In this document: positions 1-25,476 of the stretch, piece after piece
Layout of the letters: each line of letters begins with the position of its first letter
Numbering within the stretch: the first letter of the stretch is position 1
Assembly: GCF_001677475.2 (NCBI RefSeq)
Contig: NZ_CP015229.1
Source: Escherichia coli
Lineage (GTDB): Bacteria > Pseudomonadota > Gammaproteobacteria > Enterobacterales > Enterobacteriaceae
DNA length: 64,000 nucleotides
Strand: one strand, 5' to 3'
Program-made: the position numbers and the translations under genes
The notes under the pieces: generated by a model
Database searches by the model: none
What the model was told of the DNA's origin: nothing
What the model saw: only the letters and a program-made list of their open reading frames with translations

Positions 1-1434
1 AACTACCGTGAAAAATCCGTGGATGTGGTCTGCTATGACGAACTTTCCTCGTTCGAACCGGATGTTGAAAAAGAGGGTTCGCCAACCCTGCTGGGGGATA
101 AACGTATTGAGGGCTCTGTATGGCCAAAATCCATTCGCGGCTCGACGCCTAAAATCAAAGGCTCCTGCCAGATCGAAAAAGCCGCTAACGAGTCGGCACA
201 TTTCATGCGTTTTTATGTGCCCTGTCCGCACTGTGGGGGGGAGCAGTATCTGAAATTTGGCGATGATGCCTCGCCTTTCGGTCTTAAGTGGGAGAAGAAT
301 AAGCCAGAAAGTGTTTTCTACCTTTGTGAGCATCATGGCTGTGTGATCCATCAGTCTGAGCTTGACCAGAGTAACGGGCGGTGGATCTGTGAAAACACGG
401 GCATGTGGACCCGTGACGGCCTGATGTTTTTCAGCGCCCGGGGTGATGAAATTCCGCCGCCGCGCTCCATCACTTTCCATATCTGGACGGCGTACAGTCC
501 GTTCACCACCTGGGTACAGATTGTCTATGACTGGCTGGATGCACTGAAAGATCCCAACGGCCTGAAAACCTTTGTGAACACCACGCTGGGCGAGACCTAC
601 GAAGAGGCCGTGGGCGAAAAACTCGATCACCAGGTACTGATGGATAAGGTTGTGCGTTACACGGCGGCGGTGCCTGCCCGGGTGGTTTATCTGACGGCCG
701 GCATTGACTCGCAGCGAAACCGTTTTGAGATGTATGTCTGGGGATGGGCTCCGGGAGAGGAAGCCTTTCTGGTGGATAAAATCATCATTATGGGGCGTCC
801 CGATGAGGAAGAGACGCTGTTACGTGTGGATGCGGCGATCAACAAAAAATACCGCCATGCAGACGGAACCGAAATGACCATTTCCCGTGTCTGCTGGGAC
901 ATCGGGGGGATCGATGGCGAAATCGTTTATCAGAGGTCAAAAAAACACGGTGTTTTCCGGGTGCTGCCGGTAAAAGGCGCATCTGTCTATGGCAAGCCGG
1001 TGATCACCATGCCAAAAACCCGCAATCAGCGGGGCGTGTATCTGTGTGAAGTGGGGACGGACACCGCAAAAGAAATTCTCTATGCCCGTATGAGAGCCGA
1101 TCCCACGCCTGCGGATGAAGCCACGTCGTATGCCATCCGTTTTCCTGATGATCCGGAGATTTTTTCGCAGACAGAGGCGCAGCAACTGGTGGCGGAAGAG
1201 CTTGTGGAGAAGTGGGAAAAAGGAAAGATGCGTCTGCTGTGGGATAACAAAAAGCGGCGTAACGAAGCGCTGGACTGCCTGGTGTATGCCTACGCGGCAT
1301 TACGTGTGTCCGTGCAACGTTGGCAGCTTGATCTGGCTGTACTGGCAAAATCCCGGGAAGAAGAGACGACCCGGCCAACCCTTAAAGAACTGGCAGCGAA
1401 GCTGTCCGGAGGAGTGAATGGTTACAGTCGCTGA
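1..1434 (+). CDS. Phage terminase large subunit (lambda gpA-like); 5' end lies outside the window
   Basis: ORF 19..1434 is in frame from position 1; translation is collinear with the lambda gpA C-terminal nuclease/ATPase region; followed by W, B, C, D, E in lambda order. Confidence 0.9.
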   Translation, partial: NYREKSVDVVCYDELSSFEPDVEKEGSPTLLGDKRIEGSVWPKSIRGSTPKIKGSCQIEKAANESAHFMRFYVPCPHCGGEQYLKFGDDASPFGLKWEKNKPESVFYLCEHHGCVIHQSELDQSNGRWICENTGMWTRDGLMFFSARGDEIPPPRSITFHIWTAYSPFTTWVQIVYDWLDALKDPNGLKTFVNTTLGETYEEAVGEKLDHQVLMDKVVRYTAAVPARVVYLTAGIDSQRNRFEMYVWGWAPGEEAFLVDKIIIMGRPDEEETLLRVDAAINKKYRHADGTEMTISRVCWDIGGIDGEIVYQRSKKHGVFRVLPVKGASVYGKPVITMPKTRNQRGVYLCEVGTDTAKEILYARMRADPTPADEATSYAIRFPDDPEIFSQTEAQQLVAEELVEKWEKGKMRLLWDNKKRRNEALDCLVYAYAALRVSVQRWQLDLAVLAKSREEETTRPTLKELAAKLSGGVNGYSR

Positions 1435-1624
1435 ACTGCAGGCGCTGCGTCAGGCGCGCCTTGATTTATTAACCGGTAAACGGGTGGTGTCTGTCCAGAA
1501 AGATGGTCGCAGAATTGAATATACGGCGGCTTCTCTGGATGAGCTTAACCGGGCGATCAATGATGCGGAGTCGGTACTGGGGACAACCCGACGTCGCCGT
1601 CGTCCGCTGGGAGTGAGGTTATGA
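1418..1624 (+). CDS. Head-tail joining protein (lambda gpW-like)
   Basis: 68 aa, same length and position as lambda W; conserved TGKRV..VQKDGRR motif; overlaps the end of the terminase gene. Confidence 0.85.
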   Translation: MVTVAELQALRQARLDLLTGKRVVSVQKDGRRIEYTAASLDELNRAINDAESVLGTTRRRRRPLGVRL

Positions 1625-3213
1625 AACGAACGCCTGTCCTGATTGATGTGAACGGTGTTCCGCTTCGTGAGAGTCTCAGCTACAACGGGGGCGGCGCAGG
1701 ATTTGGCGGGCAAATGGCGGAGTGGTTGCCACCGGCGCAGAGTGCCGATGCGGCCCTGCTGCCCGCGTTGCGTCTGGGGAATGCCCGGGCAGATGATCTG
1801 GTGCGCAATAACGGAATAGCGGCTAATGCGGTTGCCCTGCATAAGGATCACATTGTCGGGCATATGTTTCTGATCAGCTACCGTCCGAACTGGCGCTGGC
1901 TGGGGATGCGGGAGACCGCAGCAAAAAGCTTTGTCGATGAGGTGGAGGCGTCCTGGTCGGAATACGCCGAAGGGATGTTTGGCGAGATCGACGTGGAAGG
2001 AAAACGCACGTTCACGGAATTTATCCGTGAAGGTGTGGGCGTTCATGCGTTTAACGGCGAAATCTTTGTGCAGCCGGTCTGGGATACGGAAACCACGCAG
2101 TTATTCCGTACGCGTTTTAAAGCTGTGAGTCCGAAACGGGTGGACACGCCTGGACACGGTATGGGGAACCGTTTTCTGCGGGCCGGTGTGGAGGTCGATC
2201 GATATGGCCGTGCCGTCGCGTACCATATCTGTGAGGATGATTTTCCGTTCTCTGGTAGTGGACGATGGGAACGGATCCCGCGTGAACTTCCCACCGGGCG
2301 TCCGGCCATGCTGCATATTTTCGAGCCGGTGGAGGACGGGCAGACCCGTGGGGCTAATCAGTTTTACAGCGTCATGGAACGGCTGAAGATGCTCGATTCC
2401 CTGCAGGCAACACAGCTTCAGTCGGCCATAGTGAAGGCGATGTATGCAGCGACGATTGAAAGTGAACTTGATACCGAAAAGGCCTTTGAATATATCGCCG
2501 GCGCGCCACAGGAGCAGAAGGATAATCCGCTTATTAATATTCTGGAGAAGTTCTCCAGCTGGTATGACACGAATAACGTGACACTGGGCGGAGTCAAAAT
2601 TCCGCACCTTTTCCCTGGTGATGATCTGAAACTACAGACTGCGCAGGATTCAGACAATGGATTTTCTGCACTTGAACAGGCGCTGCTGCGGTATATCGCC
2701 GCCGGTCTTGGCGTTTCCTACGAACAGTTGTCCCGTGATTACTCGAAGGTCAGTTACTCAAGTGCCCGCGCCTCCGCCAATGAGTCGTGGCGCTATTTTA
2801 TGGGGCGGCGAAAATTTATTGCGGCCCGGCTGGCCACGCAGATGTTTTCCTGCTGGCTGGAAGAGGCACTTCTTCGGGGGATTATTCGTCCGCCACGGGC
2901 ACGTTTTGATTTTTATCAGGCGCGATCAGCCTGGTCACGGGCAGAGTGGATTGGTGCCGGAAGAATGGCCATTGACGGGCTCAAGGAAGTCCAGGAATCA
3001 GTGATGCGCATTGAGGCCGGACTGAGCACGTATGAGAAAGAGCTGGCGCTAATGGGCGAGGATTATCAGGACATTTTCCGCCAGCAGGTCAGGGAATCTG
3101 CAGAGCGGCAAAAAGCCGGACTCTCACGTCCGGTGTGGATATCGCAGGCGTATCAGCAGCAGATAGCGGAGAGTCGCAGGCCGGAAGAGGAGACAACACC
3201 ACGTGAGACGTAA
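1621..3213 (+). CDS. Portal protein (lambda gpB-like)
   Basis: 530 aa ORF, ATGA overlap with the preceding gene, lambda B position and size. Confidence 0.9.
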   Translation: MKRTPVLIDVNGVPLRESLSYNGGGAGFGGQMAEWLPPAQSADAALLPALRLGNARADDLVRNNGIAANAVALHKDHIVGHMFLISYRPNWRWLGMRETAAKSFVDEVEASWSEYAEGMFGEIDVEGKRTFTEFIREGVGVHAFNGEIFVQPVWDTETTQLFRTRFKAVSPKRVDTPGHGMGNRFLRAGVEVDRYGRAVAYHICEDDFPFSGSGRWERIPRELPTGRPAMLHIFEPVEDGQTRGANQFYSVMERLKMLDSLQATQLQSAIVKAMYAATIESELDTEKAFEYIAGAPQEQKDNPLINILEKFSSWYDTNNVTLGGVKIPHLFPGDDLKLQTAQDSDNGFSALEQALLRYIAAGLGVSYEQLSRDYSKVSYSSARASANESWRYFMGRRKFIAARLATQMFSCWLEEALLRGIIRPPRARFDFYQARSAWSRAEWIGAGRMAIDGLKEVQESVMRIEAGLSTYEKELALMGEDYQDIFRQQVRESAERQKAGLSRPVWISQAYQQQIAESRRPEEETTPRET

Positions 3214-4708
3214 TCTTTCACACATTATTGCCGCAGCATTCAATGAACCGCTGCTTCTGGAGCCCGCCTATGCGCGGGTTTTCTTTTGCGCGCTCGGGCG
3301 CGAGATGGGGGCAGCAAGTCTTTCGGTACCACAACAACAGGTACAGCTTGATGCTCCCGGAATGCTGGCTGAAACGGACGAGTATATGGCCGGAGGTAAA
3401 CGACCGGCCCGTGTTTACCGGGTGGTGAACGGTATTGCTGTACTGCCGGTGACCGGCACGCTGGTGCACCGGCTGGGTGGTATGCGGCCATTTTCCGGAA
3501 TGACAGGCTATGACGGCATTGTCGCCTGTCTTCAGCAGGCAATGGCGGATAGCCAGGTGCGGGGCGTACTGCTGGACATTGACAGTCCGGGCGGGCAGGC
3601 CGCCGGCGCGTTTGACTGCGCTGACATGATTTACCGCCTCCGTCAGCAGAAGCCGGTCTGGGCACTGTGCAATGACACGGCCTGTTCTGCAGCCATGCTG
3701 CTGGCGTCGGCCTGCTCCCGACGGCTGGTTACCCAGACATCCCGTATCGGCTCCATTGGCGTGATGATGAGCCATGTCAGCTATGCCGGTCATCTGGCGC
3801 AGGCCGGTGTGGATATCACGCTGATTTACTCAGGGGCGCACAAGGTGGATGGCAATCAGTTTGAAGCGTTGCCGGCAGAGGTTCGCCAGGACATGCAGCA
3901 GCGGATTGATGCGGCGCGCCGGATGTTTGCCGAAAAAGTGGCGATGTATACCGGTCTGTCTGTTGATGCCATCACGGGAACAGAGGCTGCCGTTTTTGAA
4001 GGTCAGTCCGGCATTGAGGCCGGGCTGGCGGATGAATTAATCAATGCGTCGGATGCCATCAGTGTGATGGCCACGGCGCTGAACAGTAATGTCAGAGGAG
4101 GCACTATGCCGCAATTAACTGCAACGGAAGCCGCCGCGCAGGAGAACCAGCGAGTGATGGGGAGCCTGACATGCCAGGAAGCGAAAGGACGTGAACAGCT
4201 TGCCACGATGCTGGCAGGACAACAGGGCATGAGCGTTGAACAGGCCCGGGCGATTCTGGCCGCGGCGGCACCGCAGCAGCCGGTGGCATCCACGCAGAGT
4301 GAAGCCGATCGCATTATGGCGTGTGAAGAAGCGAACGGTCGTGAACAACTGGCGGCAACGCTGGCGGCGATGCCGGAGATGACGGTGGAAAAAGCCCGCC
4401 CGATCCTGGCTGCTTCACCGCAGGCGGATGCCGGACCATCACTCCGTGATCAGATCATGGCACTGGATGAGGCAAAAGGGGCTGAGGCGCAGGCTGAACA
4501 GCTGGCTGCCTGCCCGGGAATGACAGTGGAGAGCGCCCGGGCTGTGCTGGCTGCGGGATCAGGTAAGGCAGAACCGGTCTCTGCATCCACAACCGCCATG
4601 TTTGAACATTTCATGGCGAACCATTCACCGGCAGCGGTACAGGGTGGCGTGGCACAGACGTCAGCAGACGGTGATGCGGACGTGAAAATGCTCATGGCCA
4701 TGCCATGA
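3203..4708 (+). CDS. Capsid assembly protease C with nested scaffold (Nu3-like) C-terminal region; S49/ClpP-like peptidase
   Basis: 501 aa; N-terminal half has S49 protease-like motifs (DSPGG, SAA), C-terminal half is Ala/Gln-rich scaffold-like with three tandem repeats. Confidence 0.85.
   Translation: MRRNLSHIIAAAFNEPLLLEPAYARVFFCALGREMGAASLSVPQQQVQLDAPGMLAETDEYMAGGKRPARVYRVVNGIAVLPVTGTLVHRLGGMRPFSGMTGYDGIVACLQQAMADSQVRGVLLDIDSPGGQAAGAFDCADMIYRLRQQKPVWALCNDTACSAAMLLASACSRRLVTQTSRIGSIGVMMSHVSYAGHLAQAGVDITLIYSGAHKVDGNQFEALPAEVRQDMQQRIDAARRMFAEKVAMYTGLSVDAITGTEAAVFEGQSGIEAGLADELINASDAISVMATALNSNVRGGTMPQLTATEAAAQENQRVMGSLTCQEAKGREQLATMLAGQQGMSVEQARAILAAAAPQQPVASTQSEADRIMACEEANGREQLAATLAAMPEMTVEKARPILAASPQADAGPSLRDQIMALDEAKGAEAQAEQLAACPGMTVESARAVLAAGSGKAEPVSASTTAMFEHFMANHSPAAVQGGVAQTSADGDADVKMLMAMP
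4165..4555. repeat. Three tandem ~40-45 codon in-frame repeats inside the C/Nu3 scaffold region
   Basis: Repeated peptide unit (QEAKGREQLATMLA...VEQARAILAA / EEANGREQLAATLA...VEKARPILAA / DEAKGAEAQAEQLA...VESARAVLAA) read in the ORF translation. Confidence 0.5.
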
Positions 4709-4744
4709 AGTCAGTGCTGACCATCAATAGGAGGTTTTTACAAT

Positions 4745-5092: not shown

Positions 5093-5149
5093 CACGTTAT
5101 CAGGCCACCGCGGTGGCCTGACTGATTTCTGAATGAAAGGAACTGATTT

Positions 5150-6178
5150 ATGGGATTGTTTACGACCCGCCAGTTGCTCGGTTATACCGAACAAAAAGTG
5201 AAATATCGTGCGCTGTTTCTGGAGCTGTTTTTCCGCCGTACGGTGAATTTCCATACCGAAGAGGTGATGCTGGACAAAATTACCGGAAAAACGCCGGTGG
5301 CGGCCTATGTCTCCCCGGTTGTTGAAGGAAAAGTGCTGCGTCATCGTGGTGGTGAAACCCGCGTGTTGCGTCCGGGCTACGTCAAGCCGAAACACGAATT
5401 TAATTACCAGCAGGCGGTTGAGCGCCTTCCTGGTGAAGATCCATCTCAACTGAACGATCCGGCTTACCGCCGTCTGCGTATCATTACCGATAACCTCAAA
5501 CAGGAAGAGCACGCGATTGTCCAGGTGGAAGAAATGCAGGCGGTAAATGCTGTGTTGTATGGCAAATACACCATGGAAGGAGACCAGTTCGAGAAAATTG
5601 AGGTCGATTTTGGCAGGTCGACGAAGAATAACATCACACAGGGTAGCGGTAAGGAATGGTCAAAACAGGATCGTGACACGTTCGATCCTACACATGATAT
5701 TGATCTTTACTGCGACCAGGCCAGCGGTCTTGTGAATATTGCCATCATGGACGGTACCGTTTGGCGTCTGCTGAATGGTTTTAAGCTGTTTCGCGAAAAA
5801 CTGGATACCCGTCGCGGTTCAAATTCACAACTCGAAACGGCAGTGAAAGATCTGGGCGCAGTGGTGTCCTTCAAGGGGTATTACGGCGATCTGGCTATTG
5901 TTGTGGCGAAAACGTCTTATATAGCAGAAGACGGTATCGAAAAACGTTATCTTCCAGATGGCATGCTGGTCCTGGGGAATACTGCTGCAGATGGGATCCG
6001 TTGTTACGGAGCCATTCAGGATGCGCAGGCGTTGTCCGAAGGTGTGGTGGCTTCTTCCCGTTATCCGAAACACTGGCTGACGGTGGGGGATCCTGCCCGT
6101 GAATTTACCATGACGCAGTCCGCACCGCTGATGGTGTTGCCGGACCCGGATGAGTTTGTGGTGGTACAGGTGAAATAA
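5150..6178 (+). CDS. Major capsid protein (lambda gpE-like)
   Basis: 342 aa; long collinear identity blocks with lambda E (PGYVKPKHE, AIVQVEEMQAV, KLDTRRGSNS, TGDPAREFTM). Confidence 0.95.
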   Translation: MGLFTTRQLLGYTEQKVKYRALFLELFFRRTVNFHTEEVMLDKITGKTPVAAYVSPVVEGKVLRHRGGETRVLRPGYVKPKHEFNYQQAVERLPGEDPSQLNDPAYRRLRIITDNLKQEEHAIVQVEEMQAVNAVLYGKYTMEGDQFEKIEVDFGRSTKNNITQGSGKEWSKQDRDTFDPTHDIDLYCDQASGLVNIAIMDGTVWRLLNGFKLFREKLDTRRGSNSQLETAVKDLGAVVSFKGYYGDLAIVVAKTSYIAEDGIEKRYLPDGMLVLGNTAADGIRCYGAIQDAQALSEGVVASSRYPKHWLTVGDPAREFTMTQSAPLMVLPDPDEFVVVQVK

Positions 6179-6185
6179 TCCGTGA

Positions 6186-6216
6186 GCGGGGGCGAAATGC
6201 CCCCGTGTCTTTTTTC
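6186..6216 (+). terminator. GC hairpin plus T-run directly after the major capsid gene
   Basis: gcgggggc-gaaat-gcccccg stem-loop followed by tgtctttttt. Confidence 0.5.
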
Positions 6217-6229
6217 ACAGGGGGCTGAT

Positions 6230-6604
6230 ATGGCAACGAAAGAGCAAAATCTGAAACGGCTTGATGAACTGGCCCTGATTCTGGGGCGTGAGCCGGATAT
6301 ATCCGGGAGTGCCGCAGAGATAGCGCAGCGGGTGGCGGAATGGGAAGAGGAAATGCAGTCATCCGGCGATGATGTACAGGTTATGAATATGGATATCCGG
6401 GAGCAGGAAACCGCGGCTCATGATGTTCGTGAGGAAACATCCGGCGCGTTAACGCGCATCAGAGTTCTGACCTGCCTCCATCTCTGTGGCATTGATGGTG
6501 AAACGGGGGAATCCGTTGAGCTTGCGGATGTTGGTCGGGTGATTCTGATTATGTCCTCAGATGCAAAAACACACGTTGATGGCGGAATGGCTGTTTATGC
6601 GTGA
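6230..6604 (+). CDS. DNA packaging protein FI-like
   Basis: Position between E and FII; acidic ~124 aa product; start chosen at the ATG at 6230 inside ORF 6182..6604. Confidence 0.65.
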   Translation: MATKEQNLKRLDELALILGREPDISGSAAEIAQRVAEWEEEMQSSGDDVQVMNMDIREQETAAHDVREETSGALTRIRVLTCLHLCGIDGETGESVELADVGRVILIMSSDAKTHVDGGMAVYA

Positions 6605-6950
6605 TTTTCAGAATGCCTTTGATGCCGCCCTTGCCGGGGTGGACAGTACGATTGTTGAAGTGATGGGCATCAGTGCGCAGTTCACCTCCGGTGCACAGCG
6701 TGGCGGCGAGGTTCATGGCGTTTTTGACGATCCGGAGTCGCTGGGTTTTGCCAGTAGTGGGATCCGTATTGAAGGAAGCAACCCGTCATTATTTGTGCTT
6801 ACGGATACGGTTTGTGCTGTACGGCGTGGTGACACGCTGACCATTAACGGCGAGATATTCTGGGTGGATCGTGTTTCTCCGGATGACGGAGGGAGTTGTT
6901 ATCTCTGGCTCAACCGGGGGCAACCACCTGCCGTTAACCGTCGCCGCTGA
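6597..6950 (+). CDS. Head-tail connector FII-like
   Basis: 117 aa from the internal ATG; C-terminus FWVDRVSPDDGGSC.LWL.RG.PPAVNRRR matches lambda FII. Confidence 0.85.
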   Translation: MRDFQNAFDAALAGVDSTIVEVMGISAQFTSGAQRGGEVHGVFDDPESLGFASSGIRIEGSNPSLFVLTDTVCAVRRGDTLTINGEIFWVDRVSPDDGGSCYLWLNRGQPPAVNRRR

Positions 6951-6961: not shown

Positions 6962-7540
6962 ATGGCCATAAAAGGTCTTGAGCAGGCCGTTGAAAACCTC
7001 AGCCGTATCAGCAAAACGGCGGTGCCTGGTGCCGCCGCAATGGCCATTAACCGCGTTGCTTCATCCGCGATATCGCAGTCGGCGTCACAGGTTGCCCGTG
7101 AGACAAAGGTACGCCGGAAACTGGTAAAGGAAAGGGCCAGGCTGAAAAGGGCCACGGTCAAAAATCCGCAGGCCAGAATCAAGGTTAACCGGGGGGATTT
7201 GCCCGTAATCAAGCTGGGTAACGCGCGGATTGTCCTGCCCCGACGCAGGCGTCGTAAAAAGGGGCAGCGTTCAGCCCTGAAAGGTGGCGGCAGCGTGCTT
7301 GTGGTGGGAAACCGTCGTATTCCCGGCGCGTTTATTCAGCAACTGAAAAATGGCCGCTGGCATGTTATGCAGCGTGTGGCCGGGAAAAACCGTTACCCCA
7401 TTGATGTAGTGAAAATCCCGATGGCGGTGCCGCTGACCACGGCGTTTAAACAAAATATTGAGCGGATACGGCGTGAACGTCTTCCGAAAGAGCTGGGCTA
7501 TGCGCTGCAGCATCAACTGAGGATGGTAATAAAGCGATGA
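6962..7540 (+). CDS. Minor tail protein Z-like
   Basis: 192 aa, lambda Z size and position. Confidence 0.85.
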   Translation: MAIKGLEQAVENLSRISKTAVPGAAAMAINRVASSAISQSASQVARETKVRRKLVKERARLKRATVKNPQARIKVNRGDLPVIKLGNARIVLPRRRRRKKGQRSALKGGGSVLVVGNRRIPGAFIQQLKNGRWHVMQRVAGKNRYPIDVVKIPMAVPLTTAFKQNIERIRRERLPKELGYALQHQLRMVIKR

Positions 7541-7932
7541 AACATACTGAACTCCGTGCAGCCGTACTGGATGCACTGGAGAAGCATGACACCGGGGCGA
7601 CGTTTTTTGATGGTCGCCCCGCTGTTTTTGATGAGGCGGATTTTCCGGCAGTTGCCGTTTATCTCACCGGCGCTGAATACACGGGCGAAGAGCTGGACAG
7701 CGATACCTGGCAGGCGGAGCTGCATATCGAAGTTTTCCTGCCTGCTCAGGTGCCGGATTCAGAGCTGGATGCGTGGATGGAGTCCCGGATTTATCCGGTG
7801 ATGAGTGATATCCCGGCACTGTCAGATTTGATCACCAGTATGGTGGCCAGCGGCTATGACTACCGGCGCGACGATGATGTGGGCCTGTGGAGTTCAGCCG
7901 ATCTGACTTATGTCATTACCTATGAAATGTGA
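7537..7932 (+). CDS. Tail terminator protein U-like
   Basis: 131 aa, lambda U size and position, ATGA overlap with Z. Confidence 0.9.
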
Positions 7933-15919: not shown

Positions 15920-16010
15920 TGAGACGACAATAACTCAGTCCGCCTGGCGCCGATTATTCTGGCCGGTTTTGTAACCTGAGTGTCATTTACATGATCCAAC
16001 AGGAAATGGC

Positions 16011-17510: not shown

Positions 17511-18262
17511 GCAATATCCATCACCTTGAACATAGCCTGCGTAAACTACGCCTGACACGAGTTGGAGCTGAATGGCACGCTCTGGAAAAACGAGCGCTGG
17601 CAGAAGGCTGGACACCATCGCGCTATCTTCTGACGCTATGCAATGAAGAACTCCTGTGGCGCGAGAGTGAAAAACTGCGTCGTTATAAAAAGGAGGCCCG
17701 GTTGCCAGTTGCCAAAACGCTGAGCGAATACGACTTCAGTCAGGTGCCGGAACTGAATGGAGCTCAGTTCCGGCAACTCTGTGAAACGACAGACTGGGTT
17801 GATGCAGGAGAAAACGTTCTGCTGTTCGGAGCCAGCGGGTTGGGGAAAAGCCATCTGGCGGCAGCGATCGTGGATGGCGTAGTAGGTCAGGGCTACCGGG
17901 CCCGGTTCTACAGCGCAGGAGAGCTGTTGCAGGAACTACGTAAAGCCAGAGCTCAGTTGAAACTGAATGAGCTGCTACTGAAACTGGATCGCTACCGGGT
18001 GATAGTGGTGGATGATCTTGGCTATGTCAAACGCGATAGTGCCGAAACGGGTGTGCTGTTCGAGTTAATAGCGCATCGCTATGAACGTGGGAGCCTGGTG
18101 ATAACCAGTAACCATCCGTTCAGCATGTGGGGCAGCATCTTCGTGGATGAGACTATGGCGGTGGCTGCGGCAGACAGGCTGATCCATCACGGATATATGT
18201 TCGAACTGAAAGGGGAAAGCTACAGGAAAAAGACAGCGAAGGCAGTAACAAGCGCGACTTGA
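17507..18262 (+). CDS. istB: IS21-family helper ATPase IstB
   Basis: 251 aa; Walker A GASGLGKSH and Walker B VIVVDDLGY. Confidence 0.9.
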   Translation: MSNIHHLEHSLRKLRLTRVGAEWHALEKRALAEGWTPSRYLLTLCNEELLWRESEKLRRYKKEARLPVAKTLSEYDFSQVPELNGAQFRQLCETTDWVDAGENVLLFGASGLGKSHLAAAIVDGVVGQGYRARFYSAGELLQELRKARAQLKLNELLLKLDRYRVIVVDDLGYVKRDSAETGVLFELIAHRYERGSLVITSNHPFSMWGSIFVDETMAVAAADRLIHHGYMFELKGESYRKKTAKAVTSAT

Positions 18263-18325
18263 TGTCGCCCTGAAGGGTGCGGCCAGTATAGTTGGCGCGA
18301 GTCGGCAAAACTAGTTGACGTCTAA

Positions 18326-20320
18326 TAACCGGGCGATGTCATTGAAATCTGCGATGATGACTATGCCGGTATCAGCACCGGTGGTCGCGTGCTGGCGGTG
18401 AACAGCCAGACCCGGACGCTGACGCTCGACCGTGAAATCACGCTGCCATCCTCCGGTACCACGCTGATAAGCCTGGTTGACGGAAGTGGTAATCCGGTCA
18501 GCGTGGAGGTTCAGTCCGTCACCGACGGACTTAAGGTGAAAGTGAACCGGGTTCCTGACGGCGTTGCAGAATACAGCGTGTGGGGGCTGAAGCTGCCGAC
18601 GCTGCGCCAGCGCCTGTTCCGCTGCGTGAGTATCCGTGAGAACGACGACGGCACGTATGCCATCACTGCCGTGCAGCATGTACCGGAAAAAGAAGCCATC
18701 GTGGATAACGGGGCGCACTTTGACGGCGACCAGAGCGGCACGGTGAATGGTGTCACGCCGCCAGCGGTGCAGCACCTGACCGCCGAAGTCACCGCAGACA
18801 GCGGGGAATATCAGGTGCTGGCGCGCTGGGACACGCCGAAGGTGGTGAAGGGCGTGAGCTTCCTGCTCCGTCTGACCGTAACAGCGGATGACGGCAGTGA
18901 GCGGCTGGTCAGCACGGCCCGGACGACGGAAACCACATACCGCTTCACGCAACTGGCGCTGGGGAACTACAGGCTGACAGTCCGGGCGGTAAATGCGTGG
19001 GGGCAGCAGGGCGATCCGGCGTCGGTATCGTTCCGGATTGCCGCACCGGCAGCACCGTCGAGGATTGAGCTGACGCCGGGCTATTTTCAGATAACCGCCA
19101 CGCCGCATCTTGCCGTTTATGACCCGACGGTACAGTTTGAGTTCTGGTTCTCGGAAAAGCGGATTACCGATATCAGGCAGGTTGAAACCACAGCCCGCTA
19201 TCTTGGTACGGCGCTGTACTGGATAGCCGCCAGTATCAATATCAAACCGGGCCATGATTATTACTTTTATATCCGCAGTGTGAACACCGTTGGCAAATCG
19301 GCATTCGTGGAGGGCGTCGGTCGGGCGAGCGATGATGCGGAAGGTTACCTGGATTTTTTCAAAGGCAAGATAACCGAATCCCATCTCGGTAAAGAGCTGC
19401 TGGAAAAAGTTGATTTGACGGAGGATAACGCCAGCAGACTGGATGAGTTTTCGAAAGAGTGGAAGGACGCTAACGATAAATGGAATGCCATGTGGGGCGT
19501 CAAAATTGAGCAGACCAAAGACGGCAAACATTATGTCGCGGGTATTGGCCTCAGCATGGAGGACACGGAGGAAGGCAAGCTGAGCCAGTTTCTGGTTGCC
19601 GCTAACCGTATCGCGTTTATTGACCCGGCAAACGGGAATGAAACGCCGATGTTTGTGGCGCAGGGCAACCAGATATTCATGAACGACGTGTTCCTGAAGC
19701 GCCTGACAGCCCCCACCATTACCAGCGGTGGCAGTCCTCCGGTATTTTCCCTGACATCAGACGGAAAGCTGACCGCTAAAAATGCGGATATCAGTGGTAG
19801 TGTGAATGCGAACTCAGGAACGCTCAACAATGTCACGATTAACCAGAACTGTACGATTAAGGGCATGCTGGAGGCGACTCAGGTCAGAGGTGACTTCGTT
19901 AAAGCTGTATCCAAATCATTTCCGAAACAGGCTGGTACGTGGGGTAACACGGAAACACCAAACGGGACGGTTACAGTCACCATCAGCGATGATCATAACT
20001 TTGACCGTCAAATCATTATTCCGCCCATTATCTTTAACGGAATAGCGTATAGCGATCCGGGAAGTGGTAATAACCCGGGAGGTACAAGATACACGGGTTA
20101 TGGTTTTGAAGTTCGCAAAAACGGTGTATTAATCGCATCCAGAGAAACTAAAGGGGCCATTCCCGGTAGCTACAGTGCGGTTATTGATATGCCGAGTGGC
20201 AGGGGAAGCGTCACTCTGGAGTTTAAGGTTTTCCATAAAGGCAATCAGTGGGCAGGTAATATCACCGACTGTACGGTGATTGTGACCAAAAAAGCCGCTT
20301 CCGGCATCAGTATTCGTTGA
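18326..20320 (+). pseudogene. Tip attachment / host specificity protein J, C-terminal fragment
   Basis: Frame continues the lambda J sequence ([13 protein letters not shown]...) directly after the IS; ORF 18389..20320 covers most of it. Confidence 0.85.
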
Positions 20321-20341
20321 AATTGTTATAACCCATATAAG

Positions 20342-20365
20342 GGCACCAGAAATGGTGCCTTTTTT
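20342..20365 (+). terminator. Rho-independent terminator after J
   Basis: ggcacca-gaaa-tggtgcc hairpin followed by tttttt. Confidence 0.6.
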
Positions 20366-20389
20366 ATTGCAGAAAAGCGAGAGGTAATT

Positions 20390-20989
20390 ATGCGTAAACT
20401 TTATGCCGCCATTTTGTCCGCAGCCATTTGTCTGGCCGTATCCGGTGCGCTTGCATGGGCATCTGAACATCAGTCCACGCTGAGCGCGGGGTATCTTCAT
20501 GCCCGGACCAACGTTCCCGGCAGTGATGATCTGAACGGGATTAACGTGAAATACCGTTATGAGTTTACGGATACGCTGGGGCTGGTGACGTCATTCAGCT
20601 ATGCAGGAGACAAGAATCGCCAGCTGACCCGTTACAGCGATACCCGCTGGCATGAAGATTCCGTGCGTAACCGCTGGTTCAGCGTGATGGCGGGGCCGTC
20701 TGTGCGCGTGAATGAATGGTTCAGCGCGTATGCGATGGCGGGTATGGCTTACAGCCGTGTTTCGACTTTTTCCGGGGATTACCTTCGCGTAACTGACAAC
20801 AAGGGGAAAACGCACGATGTGCTGACCGGAAGTGATGACGGTCGCCACAGCAACACGTCTCTGGCGTGGGGGGCTGGCGTGCAGTTTAACCCGACCGAAT
20901 CCGTGGCCATTGATATTGCTTATGAAGGTTCTGGCAGTGGTGACTGGCGCACTGACGGTTTCATCGTGGGTGTCGGTTATAAATTCTGA
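20390..20989 (+). CDS. lom: Lom-like outer membrane protein (Ail/Lom family)
   Basis: 199 aa, signal peptide, beta-barrel pattern ending in a C-terminal aromatic residue; lambda position right after J. Confidence 0.9.
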   Translation: MRKLYAAILSAAICLAVSGALAWASEHQSTLSAGYLHARTNVPGSDDLNGINVKYRYEFTDTLGLVTSFSYAGDKNRQLTRYSDTRWHEDSVRNRWFSVMAGPSVRVNEWFSAYAMAGMAYSRVSTFSGDYLRVTDNKGKTHDVLTGSDDGRHSNTSLAWGAGVQFNPTESVAIDIAYEGSGSGDWRTDGFIVGVGYKF

Positions 20990-21053
20990 TTAGCCAGGTA
21001 ACACAGTGTTATGACAGCCCGCCGGTTCAGGTGGGCTTTTTTGTGGGGGGAAT

Positions 21054-23993
21054 ATGGCAGTAAAGATTTCAGGTGTACTGAAAGACGGCACAGGAAAACC
21101 GGTACAGAACTGCACAATCCAGCTGAAAGCAAAACGTAACAGCACCACGGTGGTGGTGAACACGCTGGCCTCAGAAAATCCGGATGAAGCCGGGCGTTAT
21201 AGCATGGACGTTGAGTACGGTCAGTACAGCGTTATTCTGTTGGTGGAAGGATGCCCGCCGTCACATGCCGGGACCATCACCGTGTATGAAGATTCCCGAC
21301 CCGGTACGCTGAATGATTTTCTCGGTGCCATGACGGAGGATGATGCCCGTCCGGAGGCTCTGCGCCGTTTTGAACTGATGGTGGAAGAGGTGGCGCGTAA
21401 CGCGTCCGCGGTGGCACAGAACACGGCAGCCGCGAAGAAGTCAGCCGGCGATGCCGGCACATCTGCCCGTGAGGCGGCAACCCATGCGACTGATGCTGCA
21501 GATTCAGCACGTGCAGCCAGCACGTCAGCCGGACAGGCCGCGACGTCAGCTCAGGAGGCTTTTTCCTGCGCAGGAACGGCATCAGCAAAAGCCTCTGAGG
21601 CATCAAAAAGTGCTGCCGCTGCAGAGTCCTCAAAAAGCGCGGCGGCCACCAGTGCCGGTGCCGCGAAAACGTCTGAAACGAATGCTGCAGCGTCACAACA
21701 ATCAGCAGCCACTTCTGCATCCACCGCGACCACGAAAGCGTCAGAAGCTGCCACCTCAGCCCGGGATGCGTCGGCTTCAAAAGAGGCGGCAAAATCATCA
21801 GAAACGAGCGCAGCCTCGAGCGCAAGTAGTTCCGCTTCCTCGGCAACAGCGGCAGCAAATTCTGCGAAGGCGGCAAAAACGTCCGAGACGAACGCCAGGT
21901 CTTCTGAAACGGCAGCGGAACAGAGCGCCTCAGCTGCGGCAGGTTCAGAAACTACCGCTGCATCATCAGCCCGTGAGGCGTCAGTCAAAGCGGAGGAGGC
22001 TGCAGCCAGTGCCACTGCCGCCGGAAAATCGGCAGAAAGCGCCGCATCATCCGCTTCAACAGCCACAACGAAGGCTGGCGAAGCCACTGAACAGGCCAGC
22101 GCAGCAGCGAGGTCAGCTTCCGCAGCGAAGACATCCGAAACGAACGCGAAAGCGTCGGAAACCAGCGCAGAATCCTCAAAAACGGCTGCCGCATCGTCCG
22201 CCAGTTCGGCGGCGTCATCGGCCTCATCGGCGTCTGCTTCAAAAGATGAGGCGACCAGACAAGCGTCAGCAGCGAAGGGCAGCGCCACGACGGCATCCAC
22301 GAAGGCAACAGAGGCTGCTGGCAGTGCGACGGCGGCAGCACAGAGCAAAAGTACGGCGGAATCCGCGGCAACGCGCGCCGAGACAGCGGCAAAACGGGCA
22401 GAGGATATTGCATCCGCCGTGGCGCTTGAGGATGCGAGCACGACGAAAAAGGGGATAGTACAGCTCAGCAGTGCGACCAACAGCACTTCCGAGTCACAGG
22501 CGGCAACGCCAAAGGCAGTAAAAGCAGCCAATGACAATGCTGAGAAACGTCTGCAGAAAGATCAGAACGGTGCGGATATCCCTGGCAAAGACACCTTTAC
22601 GAAAAATATTGGTGCCTGCCGTGCCTTCGGTGGGTCAGTAAGCACAACAACAGGAAACTGGACGACTGCACAGTTTATCGAGTGGCTGGATTCTCAGGGA
22701 GCATTTAACCATCCATACTGGATGTGCAAGGGTTCCTGGTCTTATGGCAATAATAAAATCATTACTGATACTGGCTGCGGTAATATTCATCTCGCCGGAG
22801 CTGTCATTGAAGTAATGGGGATAAAGTCAGCGATGACGATCCGCATTACCACTCCGACTACATCCAGCGGTGGCGGAACAACCAACGCCCAGTTTACCTA
22901 TATTAATCACGGAACAGATTATTCACCTGGCTGGCGAAGGGACTATAACTCCAGAAATAAGCCAACGGCATCAGAGATCGGGGCGCTACCGTCAGGTGGA
23001 ACAGCAGTATCATCAGTTAATCTGGCTTCAAAAGGTCGGGTAGCCGCGCTGACAGACAATACGCAGGGGGCAGCAGGTCTTGAGTTATACGAGGTGTATA
23101 ACAACGGATATCCAACAGCGTATGGAAATATCATTCACCTGAAAGGGATGACAGCCGTTGGCGAAGGTGAGTTACTCATCGGCTGGAGTGGTACAAGCGG
23201 TGCTCATGCTCCGGCATTTATTCGTTCACGACGGGATACGACCGACGCAAACTGGTCGCCGTGGGCGCAGCTTTACACCTCGGCTCATCCTCCTGCAGAG
23301 TTTTATCCAGTCGGTGCACCAATCCCGTGGCCATCAGATACCGTTCCGTCTGGCTATGCCCTGATGCAGGGGCAGACTTTTGACAAATCTGCATACCCGA
23401 AACTTGCAGCGGCTTATCCGTCAGGCGTTATTCCTGATATGCGTGGCTGGACGATTAAGGGCAAGCCCGCCAGTGGTCGTGCCGTATTGTCTCAGGAACA
23501 GGACGGCATTAAATCGCACACCCACAGCGCCAGCGCATCCAGTACGGATTTGGGGACGAAAACCACATCGTCGTTTGATTACGGCACTAAATCCACGAAT
23601 AACACCGGTGCGCATACCCATAGTTTAAGTGGCAGCACGAATGCGGCTGGTAATCACAGCCATAGAGATGGCCGTCGATTTAACCCCAGTGTTTTTAAAG
23701 ATACTTATCAATATGGTTATACAAGCTCAGGTCAAAATACCTGGGGGGTACAAGGCTCAGTAGGTATGTCTACGGGGTGGTTAGCTAATACCAGTACAGA
23801 TGGTAATCATAGCCACTCACTGTCCGGTACAGCAGTATCTGCAGGTGCACACGCGCATACTGTCGGTATTGGTGCTCATACGCACTCCGTTGCGATAGGG
23901 TCACATGGACACACCATCACCGTTAACGCTGCTGGTAACGCGGAAAACACCGTCAAAAACATCGCATTTAACTATATTGTGAGGCTTGCATGA
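21054..23993 (+). CDS. stf: Side tail fibre protein Stf-like
   Basis: 979 aa; N-terminus matches the lambda Stf N-terminal domain; long Ala/Ser/Thr-rich repeat shaft; C-terminal His-x-His repeats. Confidence 0.9.
21380..22450. repeat. Low-complexity Ala/Ser/Thr/Glu-rich repeat region inside stf
   Basis: Roughly 350 codons of degenerate SAA/TSE/AAK repeats; GC-rich and free of stops in several frames. Confidence 0.6.
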
Positions 23994-24892
23994 TTACGCT
24001 CATTCTTTCTGCACCAGTAACAGAAATGGCTGAAGCATTTAAGCGGGTATTCGCAAATGCAGATAATGTGAATATTGTCGGAAAGCCATTTGAAACAATC
24101 AGGGAATTTGACTGCATGGTAAGTGCGGCAAACAGTTTCGGCCTGATGGATGGCGGTGTTGATGCCGCCATTACCGCATTCTTCGGTACTCAGTTACAGT
24201 CCCGCGTTCAGAATCATATTCTTCGTGAATATCTCGGCGAGCAGCCTGTAGGTTCTGCATTTGTTATTGAAACGGGGCATAATCATCATCCCTGGCTGGT
24301 ACATGCGCCAACAATGCGTGTTCCGCTGACAATTGACGGAACAGACGCTGTATATAACGCAACCTGGGCCGCTCTGCTTGCCATCTTTCAGCACAATAAA
24401 CACGCAACGACAGACAGGAAAATAAAAACGGTGGTATTCCCTGCAATGGGAGCCGGATGTGGTCAGGTGCCGTTTGAAAGTGTTGCCCGGCAGATGAAGC
24501 AGGCATGGGATAACTTTAATAAAAAAACAGAATCAATTAACTGGGAATACGCACAATCCCGCCAGTCGGCAGTATTTGGCACATATGCATACTGTCCGGG
24601 TAATTCTGTTTGCCGTTATGCGGATACTAAATATATTGGATGCGGCGATTATCGGACGTATTGCTCACGTTCCGGGCAGGTCTGTATTAACCCTGAACAT
24701 CAGGCTGATGATGTACTGATACAACATCAGGCTAATAACCGGTTTCGCCCTGGTTCGCATATACACCGGATTAATCCAGAAAATCCCGTAGGTAATGTCA
24801 TCTCTGGCGCACATAGCCACGGAAGTAGCATCGTTATTGGTGCTCACACCCATACGCTCAATAAACAATATTCTGTCTCTGATATTAAGTAG
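23990..24892 (+). CDS. Protein with macrodomain-like N-terminus (putative ADP-ribose binding/hydrolase) and Cys/His-rich fibre-tip-like C-terminus
   Basis: 300 aa; start overlaps the stf stop (ATGA); motifs [18 protein letters not shown] and [12 protein letters not shown] resemble the two macrodomain signature blocks; C-terminal GSHIH, GAHSHG, GAHTHT repeats. Confidence 0.6.
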
Positions 24893-24900
24893 AGGTGAAC

Positions 24901-25476
24901 ATGGATTTCAGAATGAGTGAACAACCACGGACCATAACAATTTATAATCTGCTGGCCGGAACTAATGAATTTATTGGTGAAGGTGATGCATATATTCCGC
25001 CTCATACAGGTCTGCCAGCAAACAGTACCGATATTGCACCGCCAGATATTCCGGCTGGCTTTGTGGCTGTTTTCAACAGTGATGAGGCATCGTGGCATCT
25101 CGTTGAAGACCATCGGGGTAAAACCGTCTATGACGTGGCTTCCGGCGACGCGTTATTTATTTCTGAACTTGGCCCATTACCGGAAAATGTCACTTGGTTA
25201 TCCCCGGAAGGGGAGTTTCAGAAGTGGAACGGCACAGCCTGGGTGAAGGATACGGAAGCAGAAAAACTGTTCCGGATCCGGGAGGCGGAAGAAACAAAAA
25301 ACAACCTGATGCAGGTAGCCAGTGAGCATATTGCGCCGCTTCAGGATGCTGCAGATCTGGAAATTGCAACGGAGGAAGAAATCTCGTTGCTGGAAGCATG
25401 GAAAAAGTATCGGGTATTGCTGAACCGTGTTGATACGTCAACTGCACAGGATATTGAATGGCCAGCACTGCCGTAG
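24901..25476 (+). CDS. tfa: Tail fibre assembly protein Tfa-like
   Basis: Collinear with lambda Tfa ([75 protein letters not shown]...). Confidence 0.9.

What the first reader, a model, noticed from the sequence alone, without database searches (positions are those of the whole stretch)
1..25476. Late region is lambda-type gene for gene, including the G/G-T frameshift
Gene order, gene lengths (for example H 853 aa, U 131 aa, M 109 aa, W 68 aa) and the GGGAAAG slippery heptamer match lambda closely. The prophage belongs to the classical lambda head-tail lineage, so deviations from lambda (the macrodomain-like insert, the IS in J, the long stf shaft, the right-end moron) are the informative places to look.
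Basis: partly seen in the sequence, partly recalled or inferred. Interest (0 to 1): 0.3.

Follow-up and report, generated by a model that had tools for sequence, protein, structure and literature searches.

The report
Phage-21-type lambdoid late gene block
This is the ordinary head-and-tail gene block of a lambda-family prophage of E. coli: its tail genes are almost identical to lambda, its head genes are the phage 21 version, and its tail-tip gene J is broken by a mobile element.

Summary
Window 1-25476 carries A(truncated by the window edge)-W-B-C/Nu3-D-E-FI-FII-Z-U-V-G/T-H-M-L-K-I-J-lom-stf-tfa in lambda order. The quoted lengths are correct (W 68, U 131, M 109, H 853 aa). GGGAAAG lies at 9094-9100 in the G GGA AAG frame, where a -1 slip reads into T.

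"Matches lambda closely" is true only from Z onward: 98.2% nt over about 9 kb and 93.6-100% aa. The head genes A-FII are 40-67% aa identical to lambda but 95.7-99.6% identical to phage 21. The switch falls at the FII/Z boundary (~6930). The block is a phage-21-type head module joined to a lambda-allele tail module, a known natural mosaic.

E. coli M114 carries the same prophage at 99.7% beside prfC.

Deviations:
- A 2410-bp ISEc10 (IS21 family) sits in J, with a 6-bp duplication. It is recent and strain-specific.
- The J receptor-binding end is swapped.
- lom is divergent.
- Stf is 979 aa.
- A 906-bp macro-domain gene is inserted exactly between stf and tfa.

All of these are already annotated in databases. 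Only the macro gene is uncharacterised. It recurs as a fibre-macro-tfa triplet in unrelated phage types.

The parts
1..1434 (+). A, terminase large subunit. The 5' end is cut by the window edge; codons ~166-642 are present.
   Evidence: 99.2% aa to phage 21 A and 64.7% to lambda A.
1418..1624 (+). W, head-tail adaptor, 68 aa
   Evidence: 98.5% aa to phage 21 W; 55% to lambda W, which has the same length.
1621..3213 (+). B, portal, 530 aa
   Evidence: 99.6% to phage 21 B (530 aa); 60.7% to lambda B (533 aa).
3203..4708 (+). C, S49 prohead protease/scaffold, 501 aa, with nested Nu3 scaffold starting at ATG 4106
   Evidence: Pfam Peptidase_S49, E 5e-35. 99.2% to phage 21 C (501 aa) and 53% to lambda C (439 aa). 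An in-frame ATG at 4106 corresponds to the annotated Nu3 start of phage 21.
4745..5092 (+). D homologue (phage 21 shp), head decoration protein, 115 aa
   Evidence: Pfam HDPD, E 7e-25. 95.7% to phage 21 and 57.9% to lambda D.
5150..6178 (+). E, major capsid protein, 342 aa
   Evidence: 99.4% to phage 21; 61.3% to lambda E.
6230..6604 (+). FI, DNA-packaging protein, 124 aa
   Evidence: Pfam Packaging_FI. 98.4% to phage 21 FI. Coordinates follow the M114 and phage 21 annotations.
6597..6950 (+). FII, head-closure protein, 117 aa. The phage-21-type module ends at its 3' end (~6930).
   Evidence: 97.4% to phage 21 and 67% to lambda. A three-way DNA alignment shows the window follows phage 21 up to about 6925-6935.
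6962..7540 (+). Z, tail completion protein, 192 aa
   Evidence: 98.4% aa to lambda Z.
7537..7932 (+). U, tail terminator, 131 aa
   Evidence: 99.2% to lambda U.
7940..8680 (+). V, major tail tube protein, 246 aa
   Evidence: 97.6% to lambda V. Start as annotated in M114.
8696..9118 (+). G, tape-measure chaperone, 140 aa
   Evidence: 93.6% to lambda G.
9094..9100 (+). Slippery heptamer G GGA AAG for the -1 G-T frameshift
   Evidence: In frame with G. A -1 shift enters the T ORF at 9100. The 26-nt context is identical to lambda.
9100..9534 (+). T reading frame, expressed only as the G-T fusion (8696-9534; 280 aa predicted)
   Evidence: T is 99.3% identical to lambda T. The fusion is 270/280 identical to the lambda G-T fusion.
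9527..12088 (+). H, tape measure protein, 853 aa
   Evidence: 99.3% to lambda H, with the same length.
12085..12414 (+). M, tail tip protein, 109 aa
   Evidence: 100% to lambda M; 90.8% to phage 21 M.
12414..13112 (+). L, tail tip protein, 232 aa
   Evidence: 99.1% to lambda L.
13118..13861 (+). K, C40 peptidase-like tail tip assembly protein. The ORF is 247 aa; the lambda annotation uses the last 199 aa.
   Evidence: 100% over the 199 aa of lambda K. Annotated as 247 aa in phage 21 and M114.
13759..14430 (+). I, tail tip assembly protein, 223 aa. It overlaps K by 103 nt, as in lambda.
   Evidence: 99.6% to lambda I.
14491..15917 (+). J, 5' part (codons 1-476). The ORF runs 4 codons into the IS and stops at 15933.
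   Evidence: 98.7% to lambda J residues 1-476. The junction was read directly.
15918..18327 (+). ISEc10 (IS21 family), 2410 bp. istA is 16011-17510 (499 aa) and istB is 17507-18262 (251 aa). A 6-bp target duplication ACCGGG lies at 15912-15917 and 18328-18333.
   Evidence: Pfam IstB_IS21, E 9e-62. Imperfect terminal inverted repeats are present. It is 99.9% identical to copies annotated as ISEc10. The uninterrupted site is seen in lambda and M114.
18334..20320 (+). J, 3' part (codons 477-1137), including a non-lambda receptor-binding end
   Evidence: Removing the IS and one duplicate restores a 1137-aa ORF that is 1136/1137 identical to M114 J. Against lambda J, each 100-column block is 95-100% identical up to column 900 and 86% for 901-1000. 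The last ~140 columns are about 34% identical. The end is 98.5-100% identical to J of Stx1a/Stx2c phages. Pfam finds Ig_J, Phage_Tail_Tip and Ig_GpJ_C.
20339..20362 (+). Terminator-like hairpin after J
   Evidence: Consensus scan only. Phage 21 has an annotated terminator in the same place.
20390..20989 (+). lom-position gene, Ail/Lom outer-membrane beta-barrel protein, 199 aa (a moron)
   Evidence: Pfam Ail_Lom, E 1.5e-118. 45.7% aa to lambda Lom. A terminator-like hairpin follows at 21016-21037.
21054..23993 (+). stf, side tail fibre, 979 aa
   Evidence: Pfam phage_tail_N (1-134) and Collar (754-801). It matches lambda orf401 and orf314, with an extended Ala/Ser-rich shaft. It is 95-97% nt identical to mEp460 stf, which is 1023 aa.
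23990..24892 (+). Macro-domain gene, 300 aa: macro domain 1-195, four-Cys module ~200-240, HxH repeats ~255-290. It overlaps the stf stop (ATGA).
   Evidence: Pfam Macro, 68.2 bits against a cut-off of 22. It matches phrog_2613, of unknown function. It is an exact 906-bp insertion relative to mEp460. The AF2 model has pLDDT above 90 for residues 1-195. The best PDB fold match is the Poa1p/Ymx7 ADP-ribose-1''-phosphatase.
24901..25476 (+). tfa, tail fibre assembly protein, 191 aa
   Evidence: 94.2% aa to lambda Tfa. Pfam Caudo_TAP. Start as in M114 and mEp460.
25574..26164 (-). Pin-like serine DNA invertase, 196 aa. It lies outside the finding, in the right-end accessory region.
   Evidence: phrog_125 DNA invertase, E 5e-68. 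No crossover-site pattern and no flanking inverted repeats were found.
26544..27634 (-). Right-end small genes: ydfK-like (26544-26777), ynaM/ynfT-like (26846-26959) and dinI-like (27386-27634)
   Evidence: Annotation of the 99.3%-identical M114 prophage. GC falls to 34-42% here.
27874..27874 (.). Approximate prophage/host junction (attR side), about 20 nt inside the prfC coding sequence (prfC ATG at 27854)
   Evidence: In genomes without a prophage here, the match begins at query position 575 of window 27300-28300.

Best explanation
Window 1 to about 27873 is the right arm of a lambdoid siphovirus prophage integrated into the 5' end of prfC. It holds the late structural operon plus a short accessory region.

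The operon is a natural mosaic. The DNA-packaging and head module (A to FII) is the phage 21 type. From the FII/Z boundary it is joined to a tail module (Z to about J codon 990) that is essentially the lambda allele.

By inference from lambda, the genes work as follows. Terminase A packages DNA into a prohead built from B, C/Nu3 and E, decorated by the D homologue. W and FII close the head. V polymerises on the H tape measure; H is 853 aa, so the tail should have lambda's length. H is chaperoned by G and by the G-T fusion, which is made by a -1 ribosomal slip at G GGA AAG. M, L, K, I and J build the tip.

Downstream lie exchangeable host-range and accessory cassettes:
- a J receptor-binding end of the type found in Stx1a/Stx2c phages
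- an Ail/Lom moron
- a long side tail fibre
- an inserted macro-domain gene
- tfa

J is split at codon 476/477 by a recently transposed ISEc10. As it stands, the prophage cannot make a functional tail tip and should not yield infectious particles. Every other late gene in the window is intact.
For: - Gene order and lengths.
- Lambda identity: 98.2% nt over 6769-15917 and 95% over 18328-19876. Z-I proteins are 93.6-100% identical.
- Phage 21 identity: 97.55% nt, continuous over 1-15917. Head proteins are 95.7-99.6% identical. A per-500-nt profile agrees. The switch lies at the FII end.
- Frameshift site, frame and fusion.
- IS: boundaries, duplication and inverted repeats; identity to ISEc10; J is intact after in-silico excision; the junction is absent from 5,426 complete genomes.
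- The same prophage without the IS is in E. coli M114, at 99.7% for 1-15917 and 99.3% for 18328-32692, next to prfC.
- Host junction.
- Phage 21 essential genes are syntenic with lambda while the morons differ (PMC9119081).
Against: The functions are inferred from homology to lambda and phage 21; nothing was tested here. The left part of the prophage (immunity, replication, lysis, cos, Nu1, 5' end of A) lies outside the window, so its overall integrity is unknown. Whether the G-T slip occurs, and at what rate, cannot be shown from sequence. Precise excision of the IS could restore J in a subpopulation.
Confidence: 0.93

Rival explanations
1. The late region is lambda proper (Lambdavirus lambda lineage) throughout, and differs only at a few insertions.
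For: Gene order is perfectly collinear. H, U, M and W have identical lengths. The tail block is 98.2% identical.
Against: The head block 1-~6930 is only 41-70% identical to lambda per 500 nt and 97.2-99.8% identical to phage 21. Head proteins are 40-67% identical to lambda and 95.7-99.6% identical to phage 21. C is 501 aa as in phage 21, not 439 aa as in lambda.
Confidence: 0.03
2. The block is a decaying cryptic-prophage remnant, like Rac, Qin or e14, and not a recently active phage.
For: J is interrupted. An orphan invertase without a crossover site and Qin-like small genes (ydfK, ynaM) sit at the right end. The M114 relative carries Qin-type lysis and cold-shock genes upstream.
Against: Every late ORF other than J has exactly the length of its counterpart in plaque-forming phage 21 or lambda. 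J is a full 1137-aa ORF once the IS is removed, with 1136/1137 identity to M114. The target duplication is intact and the IS is 99.9% identical to other copies. These point to a single recent inactivating event.
Confidence: 0.15
3. The macro-domain gene between stf and tfa is a working part of the side tail fibre apparatus, either virion-associated or needed for fibre assembly, and not a passenger gene.
For: - The fibre(Collar)-Macro-Tfa triplet, with overlapping stop/start codons, recurs in lambdoid, P2-like and P1-like prophages and in other myovirus-type prophages of E. coli, Salmonella and Erwinia.
- It has no promoter or terminator of its own.
- Its C-terminal HxH repeats resemble the Stf C-terminal HxH repeats (E 8e-4).
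- All three parts are under purifying selection between the window and phage Chuche (dN/dS 0.16, 0.13, 0.30).
- Many sources name the family 'phage tail protein'.
Against: Phage mEp460 and others carry a 95-97% identical stf 3' end and tfa without the gene, so it is dispensable for that fibre. The conserved stf 3' and tfa 5' flanks would let it spread by homologous recombination as a hitch-hiker. Macro domains act on ADP-ribose derivatives inside cells. A phage macrodomain with an anti-defence role is documented: T4 AdfM against DarTG2 (bioRxiv 10.1101/2025.11.20.689424). The C-terminal ~100 residues are modelled with low confidence.
Confidence: 0.2

Closest known systems
Escherichia phage 21 (OL657228; Feiss et al. 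2022, PMC9119081)
   Same: The whole A-to-J-codon-476 stretch aligns continuously at 97.55% nt. Head proteins are 95.7-99.6% identical and share the same lengths: B 530, C 501, shp 115, E 342. The G-T frameshift is annotated at the same site.
   Different: In several tail patches the window follows lambda, not phage 21. For example, 11501-12000 is 99.8% identical to lambda and 89.8% to phage 21, and M is 100% against 90.8%. The J C-terminal part is 70.6% identical overall. Phage 21 has no gene in the lom position. Its stf is 686 aa, against 979 aa here. Phage 21 has no macro gene and carries sitABCD as its moron.
Escherichia phage lambda (NC_001416)
   Same: The gene order is identical. Z-I proteins are 93.6-100% identical. 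H is 853 aa. The slippery heptamer and its 26-nt context are identical. K and I overlap by 103 nt. tfa is 94% identical.
   Different: Head genes are only 40-67% aa identical. Over the last ~140 alignment columns of J, identity is about 34%. Lom is 46% identical. Stf is intact and about 205 aa longer than the 774 aa implied by joining lambda orf401 and orf314. There is an extra macro-domain gene and an IS in J.
Prophage next to prfC in E. coli M114 (NZ_CM151394.1)
   Same: 99.7% (1-15917) and 99.3% (18328-32692) nt identity, in the same integration site. It has the same J allele, lom, 979-aa stf, macro gene (WP_000631342.1), tfa, invertase, and ydfK, ynaM and dinI-like genes.
   Different: J is uninterrupted (1137 aa). 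The ISEc10 insertion is specific to the window's strain.
ISEc10 (IS21 family)
   Same: istA and istB lie in tandem. The element has imperfect terminal inverted repeats and a 6-bp target duplication. It is 99.9% identical to annotated ISEc10 copies.
   Different: Nothing distinctive except the target: this J insertion is not seen in any of 5,426 complete E. coli genomes.
Poa1p/Ymx7-type macro domains, and phage macrodomains such as T4 AdfM (Tk.4)
   Same: It has the macro fold, with a conserved Asn48, the G55-G56-V57-D58 loop and the G154-G158 loop. The best PDB match is 1njr, at E 2e-11; the DarG macrodomain is also matched.
   Different: It has a conserved four-Cys module and a variable number of HxH repeats at the C-terminus. 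Its position between a tail-fibre gene and tfa is fixed. No activity or anti-defence role has been shown, and the PADLOC DarG hit is insignificant (E 0.005).

Membership tests
Lambda-type (lambdoid siphovirus) late operon | Collinear order A-W-B-C/Nu3-D-E-FI-FII-Z-U-V-G-T-H-M-L-K-I-J, followed by lom/stf/tfa | tested here: met
   All ORFs are present in order, and each has its lambda counterpart as best BLASTP match.
Lambda-type (lambdoid siphovirus) late operon | A -1 programmed frameshift site (G GGA AAG) near the end of G, giving a G-T fusion | tested here: met
   The heptamer at 9094-9100 is in the correct frame. A -1 shift opens a 280-aa fusion that is 270/280 identical to lambda's. The sequence criteria are met; actual slippage cannot be tested here.
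Lambda-type (lambdoid siphovirus) late operon | Scaffold (Nu3) nested in frame within the 3' part of protease gene C | tested here: met
   An in-frame ATG at 4106 lies at the position of the annotated phage 21 Nu3 start.
Lambda-type (lambdoid siphovirus) late operon | cos site and Nu1 small terminase upstream of A | not testable with these tools
Phage lambda itself (Lambdavirus lambda), at about 95% nt species level | High nucleotide identity across the whole late region | tested here: not met
   Identity is 41-70% per 500 nt over 1-6500 and 66-68% in BLAST patches. It is met only for ~6930-19876.
Phage 21-type head/packaging module | A, W, B, C, shp, E, FI and FII near-identical to phage 21 and of the same lengths | tested here: met
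   95.7-99.6% aa identity with identical lengths. Per 500 nt, identity to phage 21 is 97.2-99.8%.
IS21 family insertion sequence (ISEc10) | Tandem istA transposase and istB helper ATPase genes | tested here: met
   The ORFs are 499 aa and 251 aa. IstB_IS21 scores E 9e-62. Copies 99.9% identical are annotated as ISEc10 istA/istB.
IS21 family insertion sequence (ISEc10) | Terminal inverted repeats and a short direct target duplication | tested here: met
   The imperfect inverted-repeat ends are TATGAGACGAC and GTCGTCTAATA (read as TATTAGACGTC on the complement). The 6-bp duplication ACCGGG flanks 15918-18327, and the empty site is present in lambda and M114.
Macro domain (Pfam PF01661) | Profile score above the curated cut-off, and the macro fold | tested here: met
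   68.2 bits against a cut-off of 22. The AF2 model has pLDDT above 90 over residues 1-195. Foldseek matches to macro domains have probability 1.00.
Macro domain (Pfam PF01661) | ADP-ribose (derivative) binding or hydrolysis | not testable with these tools
   Only conservation of pocket residues was seen: N48, G56, D58 and G158 are invariant in 53 sequences.
Din/Pin-type invertible tail-fibre switch | Serine invertase gene next to the fibre genes | tested here: met
   The 196-aa ORF at 25574-26164 (-) matches phrog_125 DNA invertase, E 5e-68.
Din/Pin-type invertible tail-fibre switch | Inverted crossover sites flanking an invertible segment with alternative fibre ends | tested here: not met
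   There is no AAACCNNGGTTT-type site in the window, even with one mismatch allowed. No convincing inverted repeat brackets the stf end or tfa. There is no second, inverted tfa.
Ail/Lom outer-membrane protein family | Full-length match to the family profile | tested here: met
   PF06316 matches 1-199 of 199, E 1.5e-118.

The most novel reading that the evidence does not exclude
The 300-aa macro-domain protein encoded between stf and tfa may be a previously unrecognised partner of phage tail fibres. It would be an ADP-ribose-processing enzyme carrying a four-Cys module and fibre-like HxH (metal-binding) repeats. It would be made with, and perhaps attached to or delivered with, the side tail fibre. 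This would explain why the fibre-macro-tfa triplet is conserved across lambdoid, P2-like, P1-like and other myovirus-type prophages of several enterobacterial genera. The alternative reading, a late-expressed anti-defence ADP-ribosylhydrolase that only hitch-hikes in the fibre cassette, would be a new member of a known kind.
Probability: 0.15. Interest if true: 0.55.

Novelty: already known. Interest (0 to 1): 0.12.

Why it matters
It matters little as a discovery. The region is a textbook lambdoid late operon, and every gene in it is already annotated in near-identical database records. The useful outcomes are corrections and bookkeeping:

- The head module is phage-21 type, not lambda type. 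Comparisons of terminase, cos specificity or capsid should therefore use phage 21.
- The prophage is probably non-infectious because ISEc10 splits J.
- The host-range determinants (J end, stf) are non-lambda alleles.

The one open question is the function of the macro-domain gene that recurs between tail-fibre and tfa genes in unrelated phage types.

Tried and rejected
- A global MAFFT profile gave a misleading 60.8% identity to lambda for 6501-7000. BLAST had extended the high-identity block back to 6769. A local three-way alignment showed the real switch at about 6930, the FII end.
- The first AF2 model of the macro protein, built from 15 close homologues, was unusable (mean pLDDT 50.7). One job failed. 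The 53-sequence alignment gave a good macro domain but left residues 196-300 unresolved.
- Context look-ups for distant macro homologues landed on contigs under 2 kb and were uninformative.
- PADLOC gave no significant defence-system match for the macro protein, the invertase or Lom.
- Pfam found nothing in the macro protein's C-terminal 114 residues, even at E of 10 or less.
- Four literature searches for a macro domain linked to tail fibres found no relevant paper.
- A search for an invertible fibre segment (crossover-site pattern, inverted repeats) was negative.
- Tandem Repeats Finder sees no clean tandem array in the stf shaft. The extra length comes from degenerate Ala/Ser-rich repeats.
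- One call failed on a wrong reading frame.

Full report
**Observation.** The mechanical ORF list for window 1-27000 contains a single + strand series of ORFs. BLASTP pairs each with a lambda late protein, in lambda order. The series runs A (cut by the window edge), W 68 aa, B 530, C 501, D-like 115, E 342, FI, FII, Z 192, U 131, V 246, G 140, T 144, H 853, M 109, L 232, K, I 223, J (in two pieces), a Lom-family gene of 199 aa, Stf 979, an extra 300-aa ORF, and Tfa.

GGGAAAG occurs four times in the window against 7.9 expected, so the heptamer by itself means nothing. The copy at 9094-9100 is different. It sits 18 nt before the G stop codon in the phase G GGA AAG. A -1 slip continues into the T ORF that starts at 9100, and the surrounding 26 nt are identical to lambda.

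**How lambda-like is it?** BLASTN against lambda NC_001416 (L001) splits the region sharply:
- 1-6168 aligns only in three patches at 66-68%.
- 6769-15917 aligns at 98.2%.
- 18328-19876 aligns at 95%.
- Similarity is fragmentary after that, until tfa at 95%.

At protein level Z, U, V, G, T, H, M, L, K and I are 93.6-100% identical to lambda. A, W, B, C, D, E, FI and FII are only 40-67% identical.

A megablast against phage genomes put phage 21 and its relatives at the top, at about 97% over 1-21403. Direct comparison with phage 21 (OL657228, L003) gives one continuous alignment of 1-15917 at 97.55%. Head proteins are 95.7-99.6% identical and have the same lengths, for example C 501 aa against 439 aa in lambda. 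A 500-nt profile shows 97.2-99.8% identity to phage 21 and 41-70% to lambda across the head genes. In the tail the window is usually closer to lambda; for example, 11501-12000 is 99.8% against 89.8%, and M is 100% against 90.8%.

A local three-way alignment places the switch at the very end of FII, at about window 6930, just before Z. The block is therefore a phage-21-type packaging and head module joined at the classical head/tail boundary to a lambda-allele tail module. This kind of mosaic is long known among lambdoid phages. The phage 21 genome paper states that its essential genes are syntenic with lambda while the morons differ (PMC9119081).

**The IS in J.** Lambda J and the J gene of the M114 prophage read ...ATGTACCGGGCGATG... 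without interruption. In the window this site is split by 2410 bp (15918-18327) flanked by a 6-bp direct duplication, ACCGGG. The insert has imperfect terminal inverted repeats. It carries a 499-aa and a 251-aa ORF, and the second is IstB_IS21 at E 9e-62. The insert is 99.9% identical to copies annotated as ISEc10, an IS21-family element.

Removing the insert and one duplicate restores a 1137-aa J ORF that differs from M114 J at one residue. No complete E. coli genome among 5,426 contains this junction. The insertion is therefore recent and strain-specific. As it stands, J ends after codon 476 plus four IS-encoded residues. J is the essential tail-tip and host-specificity protein of lambda (established knowledge). 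The prophage should therefore be unable to form infectious virions; this step is inferred, not shown.

**Host-range end of the operon.** Against lambda J, each 100-column alignment block is 95-100% identical up to column 900 and 86% for columns 901-1000. The last ~140 columns, which cover the receptor-binding domain, are only about 34% identical. That end is 98.5-100% identical to J of long-tailed Stx1a/Stx2c-converting phages and of phage IdasGreatGrand. It is a known alternative allele.

The gene in the lom position belongs to the Ail/Lom family (E 1.5e-118) but is only 46% identical to lambda Lom. Terminator-like hairpins lie after J and after lom, as expected for a moron.

Stf (979 aa) has the lambda N-terminal domain and a Collar domain. 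It is about 205 aa longer than the 774 aa implied by joining lambda orf401 and orf314. The extra length lies in a degenerate Ala/Ser-rich shaft and a divergent central part. This length is not unusual: phage mEp460 has a 1023-aa Stf that is 95-97% nt identical.

**The macro-domain gene.** Relative to mEp460 and several other phages, the window has an exact 906-bp insertion (23995-24900) between the stf stop and the tfa ATG. It encodes a 300-aa protein whose start overlaps the stf stop (ATGA), and it has no promoter or terminator match of its own.

- *Domain structure.* Residues 1-195 are a macro domain: Pfam 68.2 bits against a cut-off of 22, and an AF2 model with pLDDT above 90 from a 53-sequence alignment. 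The best PDB fold match is the yeast ADP-ribose-1''-phosphatase Ymx7/Poa1p at E 2e-11, and DarG macrodomains are also matched. Similar macro domains occur in jumbo phages and giant viruses. The C-terminal 100 residues hold a conserved four-Cys module. After it comes a variable number of GAHxH repeats that resemble the HxH repeats at the Stf C-terminus (E 8e-4).
- *Family and distribution.* The protein belongs to phrog_2613, of unknown function. The family has more than 1,700 enterobacterial proteins, often named "phage tail protein". The gene is present in 127 of 5,426 complete E. coli genomes.
- *Conserved context.* The order fibre-macro-tfa, with overlapping gene boundaries, recurs in several phage types. 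These are P2-like phage Chuche and an O22:H8 prophage, a P1-like plasmid (as a pseudogene), myovirus-type Salmonella prophages, and Erwinia.
- *Selection.* dN/dS between the window and Chuche is 0.16 for the macro domain, 0.13 for the Cys module and 0.30 for the HxH tail. The extension is therefore not a dead scar.
- *Limits on interpretation.* Phages with a 95-97% identical stf 3' end and tfa lack the gene, so it is not needed to build that fibre. One phage macrodomain, T4 AdfM, is reported to counter DarTG2 (bioRxiv 10.1101/2025.11.20.689424). I found no paper on this particular family.

My best guess is an accessory ADP-ribose-processing enzyme that travels with the fibre/tfa cassette. A direct fibre association remains possible but is unsupported.

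**Right end and context.** After tfa come, in order:
- a Pin-like serine invertase, with no crossover sites and no invertible segment
- ydfK-like, ynaM-like and dinI-like genes in low-GC DNA
- prfC

Genomes without a prophage here begin to match at window ~27874, about 20 nt inside prfC. The phage therefore supplies a replacement 5' end for prfC, and 653 of 5,426 genomes have this DinI-like phage end at that site. E. coli M114 carries the same prophage in the same place, at 99.7% (1-15917) and 99.3% (18328-32692), without the IS. The rest of the window (27.9-64 kb) is core chromosome.

**Verdict.** The finding is real and correctly located, but ordinary. It is an already-annotated, common type of lambdoid late operon: some part of it matches in 5,243 of 5,426 genomes. 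One correction applies, that the head module is phage 21 type. Only one component is uncharacterised, the macro-domain gene.

Noticed in passing
window 23990-24892; also L004 6135-7004, L007 4001-4903, L010 5001-5825, L013 5001-5864: A macro-domain protein (phrog_2613, function unknown) is encoded exactly between a Collar-type tail-fibre gene and tfa. This holds in lambdoid, P2-like, P1-like and other myovirus-type prophages of E. coli, Salmonella and Erwinia. It has a conserved four-Cys module and a variable number of fibre-like HxH repeats at its C-terminus, and all parts are under purifying selection.
   Followed up: partly
window 27854-27874: The prophage is integrated about 20 nt inside the prfC coding sequence and supplies a substitute 5' end (N-terminus [13 protein letters not shown]...). 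653 of 5,426 complete E. coli genomes carry the same DinI-like phage end at this site.
   Followed up: partly
window 25244-25442 (+): The only Rfam gathering-score hit in 1-29000 is IS009 (RF02111, 220.9 bits). It lies entirely inside the 3' half of the tfa coding sequence. The 'RNA family' probably reflects conserved tfa sequence rather than a separate RNA gene.
   Followed up: no
window 25574-26164 (-): A Pin-like serine DNA invertase lies next to tfa. There is no recognisable crossover site, no flanking inverted repeats and no alternative inverted fibre end, so it appears to be an orphan invertase. mEp460 and related phages have the same arrangement.
   Followed up: partly
window 19877-20320: The J receptor-binding end is not the lambda type (about 34% identity over the last ~140 alignment columns). 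It is 98.5-100% identical to that of long-tailed Stx1a/Stx2c-converting phages, which implies a different receptor specificity.
   Followed up: partly
window 26401-27000: GC content drops to 33.7% in the ydfK/ynaM-like region at the prophage right end, against 52-62% in the structural genes. This is typical of acquired accessory DNA.
   Followed up: no
window 45698-47283: In the host chromosome the window is not collinear with E. coli M114 between nadR and the ettA side. There are short rearranged or missing segments and about 400 bp with no match.
   Followed up: no
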